Sequence record: MW929182
Source of the DNA: Escherichia phage FS2B
Reading direction: 5' to 3' (one strand)
DNA length: 58,790 bases
Shown here: positions 21,722-27,337 of the stretch, piece after piece
How positions within the stretch are numbered: the first letter of the stretch is position 1
How the letters are laid out: each line of letters opens with the position of its first letter
Program-made: the position numbers and the translations under genes
The notes under the pieces: generated by a model
Told to the model about the DNA's origin: nothing
Seen by the model: only the letters and a program-made list of their open reading frames with translations
Databases searched by the model: none

Positions 21722-23207
<1,486 letters not shown>

Positions 23208-23712: not shown

Positions 23713-23740
23713 AACGAAAAAAGCCACCCGGAGGTGGCTA
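23713..23740 (-). terminator. intrinsic terminator downstream of the SSB-like gene
   Basis: Minus-strand hairpin AGCCACCTCCGGGTGGCT followed by TTTTTTCG. Confidence 0.55.
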
Positions 23741-23760: not shown

Positions 23761-24507
23761 TTAGAATGGGCTATCGTTGTCGTCTTCGTAAGTAGAAGCA
23801 GGCTCTTTATCAATCGTAGGGATTGAAGGAGTAGCTTCTTTCTGCTCTGTTTCAGAAGCACGAGTAATTTCACGACCAGCCAGAGGCATGTTCTTAGCGT
23901 CATTAGCTTGAGTAAGCAGGTTGCGCTGGAACGGGAACATCAGTTGATAGGATGCTACGTTCTCGTCGGTTTCAGCATATGGTTCGAAGAATACCAGAGG
24001 ACTACGAGCTTCACCAACTGCTGCACGATATTTGGTTGGGATTGGAGAAATGGTCTTGATGGAGTTTTTAACTTCACCAGCTTTGTTAGTATAAGAGTTA
24101 ACCAGAATGTTAACAGGCTGACCTAACAGAACATCCTTGAACCAAGATAGATCACCTTTCAGTGCTTGAATACTTGGGTCAATCATCTTGCAAAGATCAA
24201 GAATACCAGAGTTCTTAGCTCGTGGGTTTACATCATAGCTCTTGAACTGGCAAGCCGGACGTGGTTCTAATGCCTTACCATCGGAATCTTTACCAGTAGC
24301 ATCAACACCAATCAGCTCGAAAGCTAAATCCATACGGAAAGCCGGATTCTTAGGAGTTACTGCTTTGGTCTTCGGGTCAATCCAAGGGTCACGATTGTGA
24401 ACACCCAAACCTACTACACGAACGATACGAGCTTCGTATTCACCATCAGGGATTACATCGTAGTTGGATTTACGGGAAGAAGTTGCGATAGTTGGAATCA
24501 TAGACAT
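23761..24507 (-). CDS. single-stranded DNA-binding protein-like (acidic C-terminal tail)
   Basis: C-terminus STYEDDNDSPF resembles SSB acidic tails ending in Phe; size and placement in the replication module; preceded by a long AT-rich leader. Confidence 0.45.
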   Translation of the reverse strand: MSMIPTIATSSRKSNYDVIPDGEYEARIVRVVGLGVHNRDPWIDPKTKAVTPKNPAFRMDLAFELIGVDATGKDSDGKALEPRPACQFKSYDVNPRAKNSGILDLCKMIDPSIQALKGDLSWFKDVLLGQPVNILVNSYTNKAGEVKNSIKTISPIPTKYRAAVGEARSPLVFFEPYAETDENVASYQLMFPFQRNLLTQANDAKNMPLAGREITRASETEQKEATPSIPTIDKEPASTYEDDNDSPF

Positions 24508-24923
24508 ATTTTAATTTCCTTATTTAATTTGAAAGATTGTTGCTCTCTTTGAGCGGTTATGTATAGTATACATTACGCTTATACCGATAAGAGTACTATA
24601 TAATATAAGTATCTTTGGTAGTAGATATATCACACTAGTAATGTATATACTGTATAGCTGATAAGGTTATTGCAGGCTTGTATATTGGGCAATTCAAAGA
24701 ATCCCTTGCAAGTACCGAAGGGCAGGAGCCACCTGCGAGATAAAAATAGAGAATTAAGGAATCCTTGATTTAGGTTGTAGGGACTCCTAGGGACTTTGAT
24801 TCTCTATTTAAAAGAATATTAATTACTTATTACCTAAATAATTAACTAACTTACTTAAACCAAATTCAATAAGAATAGATAAAAAGATTATTCCTAAGAA
24901 AGCTAAAAAGTAAAGGATATAAG
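24508..24923 (-). promoter_or_regulatory. AT-rich 416-bp non-coding region with short repeats (candidate promoter or origin region)
   Basis: No ORF of 60 aa or more on the coding strand; repeated GTATA/TATAC-type motifs and GATAAG repeats; lies upstream of the SSB-like gene. Confidence 0.3.
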
Positions 24924-25053
24924 TTACCATTCAAGTAAACCTTTAAAGTTAGATTTTTCTACTATCCTCTGATAACGAAGATTAGAATCAGCTTGTTTCT
25001 TTAACATCTCATTATATTGATCTCTGATAGAGTCTTTATGTACTACAGGTTCT

Positions 25054-26986: not shown

Positions 26987-27142
26987 AGTTCGGCTAGCTC
27001 TAGATAGAACTCAGCCTCATCAGGACGACCTTGTTCATTACAGATGGCGCTCTGACGATAACACCAATCCGATGGCATCTCTTCCACTTCAATCTCCTTG
27101 TTACGAACCAATCAATAAGAATAGTTCATTCGTCTTATTTAT

Positions 27143-27337
27143 TCACTCTACCAATGCAGGTACTTCTATCCTTTTAACTGTGAATGTCTTGTTTGGAAAC
27201 TTTCGAACTAGCTCTGCTGCTTTGGTTATTGCTAAGTTCTCTGTCTCAAAGATACACAGTTGACCATTTAATGCTACGAGAGTGGAGCCACCGCTGAAGA
27301 CGGCCCAAGATTCATAATAACCACGAACACTCATCAC
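27143..27337 (-). CDS. hypothetical protein
   Basis: Track ORF on the coding strand; 4-nt overlap with the upstream gene. Confidence 0.35.
   Translation of the reverse strand: MMSVRGYYESWAVFSGGSTLVALNGQLCIFETENLAITKAAELVRKFPNKTFTVKRIEVPALVE

What the first reader, a model, noticed from the sequence alone, without database searches (positions are those of the whole stretch)
24508..24923. AT-rich 416-bp non-coding region with iterated motifs upstream of the SSB-like gene
This is the longest AT-rich gap in the replication arm. It contains repeated GTATA/TATAC-type motifs and two GATAAG copies and directly precedes the SSB-like gene, while a strong terminator follows that gene. The placement fits a replication origin or a strong middle promoter region.
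Basis: inference. Interest (0 to 1): 0.4.

Follow-up and report, generated by a model that had tools for sequence, protein, structure and literature searches.

The report
Back-to-back phage promoters, hidden small RNA
This gap in a phiEco32-like coliphage shows no sign of being a replication origin; it holds the already published promoter of the SSB-like gene placed back-to-back with an apparently unreported twin of the phage's P68 promoter, which points the opposite way into a very conserved, structured non-coding RNA of about 160 bases whose function is unknown.

Summary
The window is a Kuravirus (phiEco32-like) genome, about 98% identical to phiEco32, and the local genes lie on the minus strand. 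The gap is real, but its last 101 bases are a small membrane-peptide gene (phi32_41 homolog), so the non-coding stretch is 24508-24822.

The minus-strand copy is the published middle promoter P40 of the SSB-like gene.

The plus-strand copy is not among the six published gp36 promoters. It repeats P68's TTGGTAGTAGATAT block, its 10-base spacer length and its AATGTATATA box. Both blocks are kept in all relatives carrying the element, while the spacer sequence between them varies.

This promoter faces away from gene 40 into a stretch with no conserved ORF. That stretch has:
- a 5' hairpin with compensatory changes;
- a swappable central module;
- a 98-base segment that is 96-100% identical where flanking genes are 82-88% identical;
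- a long hairpin with the layout of a bidirectional terminator.

No iterons or GC-skew extremum support an origin. Function of the putative RNA is unknown; nothing was tested experimentally.

The parts
23722..23739 (-). Intrinsic terminator downstream of the SSB-like gene (AGCCACC-TCCG-GGTGGCT followed by TTTTTTCG).
   Evidence: The same site is annotated as a terminator in phage WFI101126.
23761..24507 (-). Gene 40 homolog, 248 aa: an SSB-like protein with an OB-fold core and an acidic tail ending DDNDSPF.
   Evidence: phrog_6599 at E = 5e-119, function unknown. No Pfam hit and no PDB sequence hit. AlphaFold pLDDT is 82. The top Foldseek hits against the PDB are SSB, PriB, RPA and PrgE, but weak (best E = 1e-3; TM-score normalised to target length about 0.2-0.5). 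The C-terminal DDxPF is conserved.
24508..24560 (-). 53-nt leader of the gene-40 mRNA. It has a small 5' hairpin GCUC-AAAGA-GAGC (24554-24542), then the conserved ACAAUC, then the AAGGAA ribosome-binding site (24521-24516).
   Evidence: RNA fold of the leader. The stem covaries among relatives (GCUC/GAGC, GUUC/GAAC, GUCC/GGAC, GUUCA/UGAAC), read directly. The automatic alignment failed to recover it.
24561..24600 (-). Promoter P40, gp36-dependent middle promoter. TAATGTATA is at 24575-24567 and AATGTA at 24574-24569. The predicted start is about 24560-24557. Of the two -35 contact bases seen in P68, only -34A is present (24594).
   Evidence: Exact motif. The 41-base string is identical to the 'middle promoter between CDS37 and CDS38' of SU10 table S2. 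P40 is listed among the six phiEco32 gp36 promoters. The start site is inferred from the P68 register.
24615..24653 (+). Apparently unreported gp36-type promoter facing away from gene 40. It reads TTGGTAGTAGATAT (24615-24628), a 10-base spacer, then TAATGTATATA (24639-24649). The predicted start is about 24654-24657.
   Evidence: The 14-mer, the spacer length and the AATGTATATA box are the same as in P68 (35573-35533, minus strand). The composite TGGTAG-N17/18-AATGWA occurs 3 times in the window against 0.07 expected. The -37G and -34A contact bases of the cryo-EM structure are kept. Both boxes are conserved while the spacer varies in 22 unique close relatives and 5 divergent ones. The site is absent from the published promoter lists.
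24654..24812 (+). Putative non-coding RNA of about 159 nt (about 185 nt in relatives with module B).
- P1, the 5' hairpin: 24654-24670.
- UUGCA junction: 24670-24674.
- Variable module A: 24675-24715.
- Conserved 3' half: 24715-24812, containing P3 and P4.
- P3: GCAGG-AGCCA-CCUGC, 24722-24736.
- P4: long hairpin, 24744-24809.
   Evidence: - No conserved ORF: relatives differ by 1-base indels and by exchange of the whole module.
- P1: 2 of 6 pairs change on both sides, G.U alternates with G-C, and 99% of cells are paired. Divergent relatives have entirely different stems.
- P3: GCAGG/CCUGC becomes GCUGG/CCAGC in L041.
- The 3' half is 96-100% identical where the flanking coding sequence is 82-88% identical.
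- GC skew is +0.22 on the plus strand, opposite to the neighbourhood.
- No Rfam family matches.
24744..24809 (.). Long hairpin P4 flanked by an A-run and a T-run, the layout of a bidirectional terminator. On the minus strand it lies 13 bases after the gene-41 stop and is followed by AUUUUUAUCU. On the plus strand it closes the putative RNA and is followed by only AUUUAAAA. It contains the direct repeat TAGGGACT twice (24778-24785 and 24788-24795).
   Evidence: Plus strand: -23.5 kcal/mol, z = -3.1, a 16-bp outer stem with two G.U pairs. Minus strand: -18.2 kcal/mol, z = -3.9, an 11-bp outer stem. The outer stem never varies, so there is no covariation evidence. The terminator scan did not call it, because the loop exceeds its limit.
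24823..24930 (-). Gene 41 homolog, a 35-aa hydrophobic peptide (MVTYILYFLAFLGIIFLSILIEFGLSKLVNYLGNK). This is the extremely AT-rich right part of the reported 'gap'.
   Evidence: Annotated in phiEco32, SU10 and others. phrog_24970 at E = 6e-26. Substitutions are mostly conservative, and EcoN5 has a truncated 25-aa variant. The gene is deleted in ECBP2, Bas88, TH43, E20-1, Bas86 and Paul.

Best explanation
The region is a transcription junction of the middle-gene arm with four pieces. I find no positive evidence that it is an origin.

1. Reading the minus strand, the operon that starts at P58 ends after gene 41 at a long hairpin followed by a U-run (inferred).
2. Transcription restarts at P40, the published gp36-dependent promoter. 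This gives the SSB-like gene an mRNA with a 53-nt leader that begins with a small covarying hairpin. The promoter identity rests on exact sequence identity with a published promoter; the start site and the role of the hairpin are inferred.
3. Back-to-back with P40, on the plus strand, lies a second gp36 promoter that copies P68 in its -35 block, spacing and -10 box. This is shown at the level of sequence and conservation, not experimentally.
4. That promoter should produce, in the middle and late phase when E. coli RNA polymerase carries gp36 and gp79, a non-coding RNA of about 160 nt. The RNA starts with a 5' hairpin, carries an exchangeable central module and a nearly invariant 3' half, and ends at the same long hairpin read from the other side (inferred).

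I think the RNA itself is most likely the functional product, acting as a regulatory or protein-binding small RNA of unknown target. The reason is that its body is more conserved than the flanking genes and its 5' hairpin keeps pairing through compensatory changes that fit only the plus strand in half of the sequences.
For: - The phage is identified as phiEco32-like, 98-100% identical.
- The P40 string is identical to the published SU10 middle promoter, and P40 is on the published list.
- The plus-strand promoter shares a 14-mer with P68 that occurs only twice in the window. Spacing and -10 box are the same. The composite pattern occurs 3 times against 0.07 expected.
- The -37G and -34A bases contacted by gp36 are present.
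- Both boxes are invariant, or nearly so, in 27 unique relatives, while the spacer between them varies.
- P1 covaries, and its G.U pairs form on the plus strand only.
- P3 shows a compensatory change in L041.
- The 98-nt 3' half is 96-100% identical against 82-88% for flanking genes.
- There is one copy per genome in 98 phage records.
- The plus strand has an excess of G over C, as sense strands do elsewhere in this genome.
- P4 folds stably on both strands.
Against: - There is no experimental start site, RNA-seq or Northern blot for the plus-strand transcript.
- Three later papers list only six gp36 promoters. I could not read the primary paper (Pavlova 2012), so prior description cannot be fully excluded.
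- The U-run after P4 on the plus strand is short (AUUU), so the 3' end, and therefore the RNA length, is uncertain. Transcription might read through as antisense RNA into genes 41-43.
- P3 and P4 are almost invariant, so covariation cannot prove them.
- P1 is weak, at -2 to -6 kcal/mol.
- No target was found among phage translation-initiation regions beyond shuffled controls, and nothing similar exists in E. coli genomes.
- In two relatives (L045, L052) the divergent promoter is kept but the downstream sequence is different and short. This hints that the act of transcription, not the RNA, may be what matters.
Confidence: 0.62

Rival explanations
1. Replication origin. The plus-strand gp36 promoter makes a primer or activator transcript, as at the T7 primary origin or at T4 oriF/oriG. 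That transcript opens or primes DNA synthesis in the adjacent AT-rich DNA next to the SSB gene. The conserved hairpins would then be DNA or primer-RNA signals.
For: - A promoter with no gene behind it lies inside the replication-gene arm, beside the SSB-like gene.
- Very AT-rich DNA lies on both sides: 28% and 18% G+C.
- There is a single copy per genome.
- A 98-base block is extremely conserved, which could equally reflect DNA-level recognition.
- L045 and L052 keep the divergent promoter with a different downstream sequence.
Against: - There are no iterons; the only direct repeat is one 8-base pair.
- There is no GC-skew extremum here. The only one, near 19 kb, coincides with the switch in gene orientation.
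- A rightward primer would send a fork head-on into all middle and early transcription.
- The AT-rich tract right of the hairpin is a gene in this phage and is largely deleted in several relatives.
- Promoter-to-promoter spacing is unconstrained, with an insertion of about 140 bases in some genomes.
- Relatives with the gene-40 protein at 64-69% identity lack the element altogether.
- P1's G.U pairs point to an RNA, or at least a plus-strand single-stranded, structure.
Confidence: 0.12
2. There is no functional plus-strand RNA. Under this view:
- the conserved hairpin block is a minus-strand signal, either the terminator or an RNase III-type processing site between genes 41 and 40 of a polycistronic mRNA;
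- the plus-strand promoter acts only through transcription itself, by colliding with read-through polymerases or by stimulating P40 through divergent supercoiling, or else it is silent.
For: - On the minus strand, P4 is followed by the better, invariant U-run (AUUUUUAUC) and lies 13 bases after the gene-41 stop.
- The fold z-score is slightly better on the minus strand.
- Terminator followed by promoter is the expected layout in front of P40.
- L045 and L052 keep the promoter but not the RNA body.
- No target was found for the RNA.
Against: - P3 and the module lie downstream of the minus-strand terminator, yet they are conserved or structured.
- P1 does not fold on the minus strand in about half of the sequences, where G.U becomes C-A.
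- The 38-base interior of P4 is far more conserved than terminator loops usually are.
- P4's outer stem is 16 bp on the plus strand but 11 bp on the minus strand.
Confidence: 0.22
3. The plus-strand promoter drives a small protein gene, for example the 32-codon TTG ORF at 24670-24768.
For: A 32-aa ORF and a 21-aa ORF exist on the plus strand.
Against: - In phiEco32 and all other relatives sampled the AAGG upstream of the TTG start reads AAAG or another non-matching sequence, so no ribosome-binding site is conserved.
- 1-base indels among close relatives shift the reading frame.
- Modules B, C and D replace the sequence with unrelated text giving unrelated peptides.
Confidence: 0.02

Closest known systems
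phiEco32 gp36-dependent promoters (P6, P13, P26, P40, P58, P68; Pavlova et al. 2012 as summarised in PMC4331800, PMC8948821 and PMC4281155; P68 open-complex structure in PMC12276001)
   Same: The minus-strand site is P40 itself. The plus-strand site has the tAATGTATAtA box and, like P68, the upstream TTGGTAG block with -37G and -34A at the same distance.
   Different: The plus-strand site is not on the published list. It points against the direction of all middle genes and has no protein gene behind it.
Promoter-dependent phage origins: the T7 primary origin (phage promoters followed by AT-rich DNA) and T4 oriF/oriG (a middle promoter whose transcript forms a primer R-loop). This comparison rests on my own knowledge.
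   Same: A phage-specific middle promoter with no gene behind it, AT-rich DNA nearby, and a location among replication genes.
   Different: The DNA just downstream of the promoter has ordinary G+C content and a conserved sequence, rather than being an easily unwound tract. The fork direction would oppose transcription. There is no experimental or skew support.
Bidirectional intrinsic terminators, and T7-type RNase III processing hairpins (own knowledge)
   Same: A hairpin flanked by an A-run and a U-run between convergent transcripts. It is a long, irregular hairpin in an intercistronic position and is conserved in sequence.
   Different: The stem is AU-rich and encloses 35-44 bases, well above the 3-8-base loop allowed by the terminator scan used here. 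The U-run is good on one strand only. Neither termination nor cleavage has been tested.
Phage-encoded small non-coding RNAs (for example the four ncRNAs reported for Pseudomonas phage PA5oct, PMC7318152, abstract seen)
   Same: A short, structured transcript without an ORF, made from a phage genome during lytic growth.
   Different: This one is predicted to depend on a phage-encoded sigma factor. It has an exchangeable central module and matches no Rfam family.

Membership tests
gp36-dependent promoter of phiEco32-like phages | Consensus box tAATGTAtA | tested here: met
   Exact TAATGTATA at 24575-24567 (minus strand) and 24639-24647 (plus strand). There are only four exact copies in the window.
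gp36-dependent promoter of phiEco32-like phages | P68-type upstream contacts: -37G and -34A at fixed distance from AATG | tested here: met
   Plus-strand site: TTGGTAG with G at -37 and A at -34, the same register as P68. P40 has only -34A, read from the sequence.
gp36-dependent promoter of phiEco32-like phages | Transcription start 6-8 bases downstream of the box, dependent on gp36 holoenzyme | not testable with these tools
   The literature reports this for P40 in phiEco32. No data exist for the plus-strand site.
gp36-dependent promoter of phiEco32-like phages | Located upstream of a middle or late gene, in the direction of that gene | tested here: not met
   Met for P40. Not met for the plus-strand site, which has no conserved ORF downstream. 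This is a habit of the known members rather than a mechanistic requirement.
Replication origin (iteron type or promoter-primed type) | Repeated initiator-binding sites (iterons) | tested here: not met
   The only direct repeats are one 8-base pair (TAGGGACT twice) and chance-level pairs.
Replication origin (iteron type or promoter-primed type) | Extremum of cumulative GC skew at the site | tested here: not met
   The single maximum is near 19 kb, at the switch of gene orientation. At 24-25 kb there is only a local blip, caused by the G-rich plus-strand block. The test is weak, because in this genome skew follows transcription.
Replication origin (iteron type or promoter-primed type) | Promoter without a gene, next to an easily unwound AT-rich tract | tested here: inconclusive
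   The promoter is present. The AT-rich tracts are the promoter block itself and the gene-41 segment, which is deleted in several relatives.
Replication origin (iteron type or promoter-primed type) | Initiation of DNA synthesis mapped to the site | not testable with these tools
   This needs depth profiling or 2D gels.
Intrinsic (rho-independent) terminator | Stable hairpin immediately followed by a U-run | tested here: inconclusive
   P4 is stable on both strands. The U-run is good on the minus strand (AUUUUUAU) and poor on the plus strand (AUUU). The stem is AU-rich and encloses 35-44 bases, so the consensus scan does not call it.
Any curated RNA family (Rfam 15) | Covariance-model score at or above the gathering threshold | tested here: not met
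   No hit in the region at the gathering threshold. The best sub-threshold hits score 15-18 bits against thresholds of 39-85 and are chance matches.
Structured non-coding RNA (generic) | Base pairs kept through compensatory changes | tested here: met
   - P1: 2 of 6 pairs change on both sides, plus a G.U/G-C alternation. 0 of 500 shuffles reach the observed covariation score. Three further unrelated stem sequences occur in divergent relatives.
- P3: one compensatory event.
- P4 and the alternative long-range stem P2 (UUGCAGG 24670-24676 with CCUGCGA 24732-24738, which competes with P3) are invariant, so they are uninformative.
Single-stranded DNA-binding protein (gene 40 product) | OB fold plus acidic C-terminal tip ending in a hydrophobic residue | tested here: met
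   The model has pLDDT 82, and its top structural matches are SSB, PriB, RPA and PrgE, though weak. The tail DDNDSPF fits the conserved DDxPF. There is no sequence-level hit to Pfam or the PDB.

The most novel reading that the evidence does not exclude
The plus-strand transcript is a functional small RNA that depends on the phage sigma factor. Its nearly invariant 3' half would bind a host or phage protein. Its exchangeable central cassette (modules A, B, C and D, shuffled among otherwise near-identical phages) would set specificity, for example as a decoy or regulator aimed at variable host factors or defence systems.
Probability: 0.15. Interest if true: 0.75.

Novelty: new member of a known kind. 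Interest (0 to 1): 0.5.

Why it matters
phiEco32 is a model for how a phage reprograms E. coli RNA polymerase with its own sigma factor (gp36) and a co-factor (gp79). Its promoter catalogue has stood at six.

A seventh site that duplicates the structurally characterised P68, yet faces the opposite way into a conserved non-coding RNA, would have three consequences:
- it would extend that catalogue;
- it would give a first candidate regulatory RNA for this phage group, many of whose members were isolated as candidate therapeutic coliphages;
- it would explain why this intergenic block is more conserved than the genes around it.

The prediction is cheap to test, because RNA-seq data from Kuravirus-infected cells already exist. 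It also cautions against calling AT-rich gaps 'origins' when they hold promoters for a phage sigma factor.

Tried and rejected
- Rfam at the gathering threshold and at permissive E-values gave nothing real. The DUF2815-RNA hit (15 bits against a threshold of 41) matches only the ribosome-binding-site part.
- tRNA/tmRNA scan: the only gene is tRNA-Arg at 54.5 kb.
- Similarity of the RNA, or of modules B, C and D, to 5,426 E. coli genomes: none.
- Paralogs elsewhere in the window: none, apart from the promoter boxes.
- Duplex-energy scan of three RNA segments against 158 phage translation-initiation regions: no better than shuffled RNA.
- CsrA-sponge idea: I count four GGA motifs by hand in 159 nt, against about three expected from composition. 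That is not an enrichment, so I dropped the idea.
- Protein-coding reading of the plus strand: rejected because of frame-shifting indels and module replacement.
- Iterons: none.
- Pattern scans of IMG/VR and JGI metagenomes returned only known isolates, close relatives and chance hits.
- More distant phages with a gene-40 homolog (7-11, GAP52, Privateer, LAh_8, Vp_R1, CsaP_009) have only 54-243 bases upstream of it and lack the element.
- MAFFT with RNAalifold could not align the short leader hairpin, so that evidence comes from direct reading.
- The primary papers (PMC3275717, PMC2587145) are not held in the library.

Full report
**Identity and layout**

The 1.9 kb around the finding is 95-99.5% identical to about 60 Escherichia and Shigella phages of the phiEco32 group (Kuravirus and Suseptimavirus, subfamily Gordonclarkvirinae). 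The 416-base region itself is 98% identical to phiEco32 and occurs once per genome in 98 records.

All genes between about 19 kb and the right end of the window are on the minus strand. The region therefore lies upstream of the 248-aa gene 23761-24507 (phi32_40 homolog) and downstream of the genes homologous to phi32_41, phi32_42 and a phosphoesterase. The phage sigma factor gp36 is encoded nearby at 22101-22748.

**Checking the observation**

- With ORFs of at least 50 aa, 24508-24923 is a 416-base gap at 30% G+C, the longest in the middle-gene arm.
- GTATA/TATAC are enriched: 8 copies against 1.8 in shuffles.
- Two GATAAG copies exist.
- A canonical terminator follows gene 40.
- The gene is plausibly an SSB. 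It has no Pfam or PDB sequence hit. A model with pLDDT 82 matches, weakly but almost exclusively, OB-fold ssDNA-binding proteins. The family also keeps an acidic tail ending DDxPF.

Two corrections are needed.

First, the right 101 bases belong to a 35-aa hydrophobic ORF, the phi32_41 homolog. It overlaps the stop of the upstream gene, matches phrog_24970, and varies by mostly conservative substitutions. The non-coding stretch is therefore 24508-24822.

Second, the gap is a mosaic of 28%, 44-45% and 18% G+C, not a uniform AT-rich tract.

**What the motifs are**

Published work on phiEco32 states that E. coli RNA polymerase carrying gp36 recognises the box tAATGTAtA, placed 6-8 bases upstream of the transcription start. 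It lists six such promoters, upstream of genes 6, 13, 26, 40, 58 and 68.

The window holds four exact TAATGTATA copies, and two of them lie in this gap on opposite strands. The minus-strand copy (24575-24567), with 32 flanking bases, is identical to the string that the SU10 paper lists as the middle promoter in front of the gene-40 homolog. This is P40. Using the register of the P68 open-complex structure (AATG at -14 to -11), the start falls at about 24560, which gives a 53-nt leader.

**A second promoter, apparently unreported**

The plus-strand copy reads TTGGTAGTAGATAT, a 10-base spacer, then TAATGTATATA (24615-24649).

- The 14-mer occurs only twice in the window. The other copy is P68, followed at the same distance by AAATGTATATA.
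- The composite pattern TGGTAG-N17/18-AATGWA occurs three times against 0.07 expected.
- The two upstream bases that gp36 contacts in the cryo-EM structure, -37G and -34A, whose mutation abolishes transcription, are present in the same register.
- Across 22 unique sequences from isolates and metagenomes, both boxes are invariant while the spacer between them differs freely.
- Five more divergent relatives, found through gene-40 homologs of 71-81% identity, keep TGGTAG, a 17-base spacer and AATG(T/A)A.

This is the conservation pattern of a working promoter. It points rightward, away from gene 40 and against every neighbouring gene, and it is not in the published lists. I could not read the primary 2012 paper.

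**What lies behind it**

From the predicted start (about 24654) to 24812 there is no conserved ORF. Close relatives differ by single-base indels, and whole segments are replaced. The sequence has four parts.

1. **A 5' hairpin, P1.** Its stem changes by compensatory substitutions: ATAGCT/AGCTAT, ATAGTT/AACTAT, AGAGTT/AACTCT, ATAGA/TCTAT and, in divergent relatives, AUCUCU/AGAGGU and ACAUC/GAUGU. In 11 of 21 sequences one pair is G.U, which would be a C-A mismatch on the other strand.
2. **A central module that exists in at least four unrelated versions.** It is flanked by the constant UUGCA and GAAGGGC. The versions are distributed without regard to phylogeny. For example, MN05 and SR02 share P1 but carry different modules.
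3. **A hairpin, P3 (GCAGG-AGMCA-CCUGC).** It becomes GCUGG/CCAGC in one divergent relative.
4. **A long hairpin, P4 (24744-24809).** It is stable on both strands.

The last 98 bases are 96-100% identical in phages whose flanking coding sequences are only 82-88% identical. The block also has an excess of G over C on the plus strand, the opposite of its surroundings. No Rfam family matches.

**The long hairpin**

P4 is bracketed by an A-run and a T-run. On the minus strand it begins 13 bases after the gene-41 stop and is followed by the invariant AUUUUUAUC, so it probably terminates the operon that starts at P58. P40 is then needed to restart transcription.

On the plus strand the same hairpin has a longer outer stem, 16 bp with two G.U pairs, but only a short U-run. 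The 3' end of the putative RNA is therefore uncertain. The terminator role is inferred, and an RNase III site is an alternative.

**Origin hypothesis**

I found no iterons and no GC-skew extremum at this position. The distance between the two promoters is not fixed: some genomes have an insertion of about 140 bases. The element is absent from phages whose gene-40 protein is 64-69% identical, and from the Grimontviridae relatives and Aeromonas phage LAh_8.

A rightward primer would also drive a fork head-on into middle and early transcription. On the other side, two relatives keep a divergent promoter with a different, short downstream sequence. This leaves room for models in which transcription itself is what matters, including origin activation. 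I rate the origin reading at about 0.12.

**Function of the RNA**

The function is unknown. There is no similarity to E. coli genomes. No phage translation-initiation region pairs with the RNA better than with shuffled controls. GGA motifs are not enriched, by my hand count.

I commit to a middle-phase small RNA that acts through its conserved 3' half, with the module as a variable specificity element. This step is inference.

**Verdict**

The P40 part is already known.
- The origin half is unsupported.
- The added value is a seventh predicted promoter of the P68 class and a conserved, modular RNA family with no ORF, restricted to phiEco32-like phages. It is a new member of a known kind, of moderate interest, and directly testable with existing RNA-seq data.

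Noticed in passing
window 24542-24554 (minus strand), inside the gene-40 leader: A small hairpin sits 7 nt after the predicted P40 start and is followed by the conserved ACAAUC. The stem covaries among relatives (GCUC/GAGC, GUUC/GAAC, GUCC/GGAC, GUUCA/UGAAC). It is present even in phages that lack the small-RNA element (L043, L044). It could be a 5' stabiliser or a translational operator of the SSB-like gene.
   Followed up: partly
window 27125-27153 (minus strand): A third match to TGGTAG-N17-AATGAA lies just upstream of the phi32_50 homolog. It is conserved in phiEco32, SU10, NJ01 and a metagenome contig. It is a possible further gp36-type promoter, not on the published list.
   Followed up: no
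window 24559-24573: The palindrome ATGTATA-G-TATACAT overlaps the -10 box and start region of P40. Suseptimavirus relatives keep TGTATA/TATACA arms with a 3-base spacer instead. It may be an operator, or an echo of the box.
   Followed up: no
L015 about 630-775 (myPSH1131); also L024, L028, L030, L032, L036, L037: An insertion of about 140 bases of unrelated sequence lies between P40 and the plus-strand promoter in one sub-lineage. That lineage also carries module B and an ATGGTAGTATAT variant of the -35 block.
   Followed up: no
window 24675-24715 compared with relatives: The central module of the putative RNA exists in at least four unrelated versions. The versions are shuffled among otherwise near-identical phages. 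GAUAAG-like sequences recur in predicted loops: the P1 loop GAUAAG/GAUAAA, the module B loop CGAUAAGG and the module C loop AGAUAAGU.
   Followed up: partly
L045 1-200 and L052 330-658: Relatives with the gene-40 protein at 75% and 68% identity keep a divergent TTGG(T/A)AG-N17-AATG(T/A)A promoter next to P40. Downstream of it they have only a short AT-rich sequence that looks like a terminator, rather than the conserved RNA body. L045 is cut by the contig end.
   Followed up: partly
L002 1331-1744 and L003 1331-1744 (WFI101126, SU10): An HNH homing endonuclease gene is inserted between the gene-40 homolog and its terminator in some relatives. It is absent from this window and from phiEco32.
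   Followed up: no
window 24823-24930: The 35-aa membrane-peptide gene (phi32_41 homolog) is deleted in ECBP2, Bas88, TH43, E20-1, Bas86 and Paul, and is shortened to 25 aa in EcoN5.
   Followed up: partly
window 52974-53391 and 55470-56053: These gaps are as long as or longer than the one studied here (418 and 584 bases). They lie in the early region, where three sigma-70 early promoters are reported for SU10 and phiEco32.
   Followed up: no
window 54553-54628 (minus strand): tRNA-Arg (anticodon TCT), the only tRNA gene in the window.
   Followed up: no
window 23761-23790 (C-terminus of the gene-40 protein): The tail DDNDSPF resembles the C-terminal tip of bacterial SSB (DDDIPF, from my own knowledge). 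This suggests that the phage protein could dock onto host SSB partner proteins.
   Followed up: no
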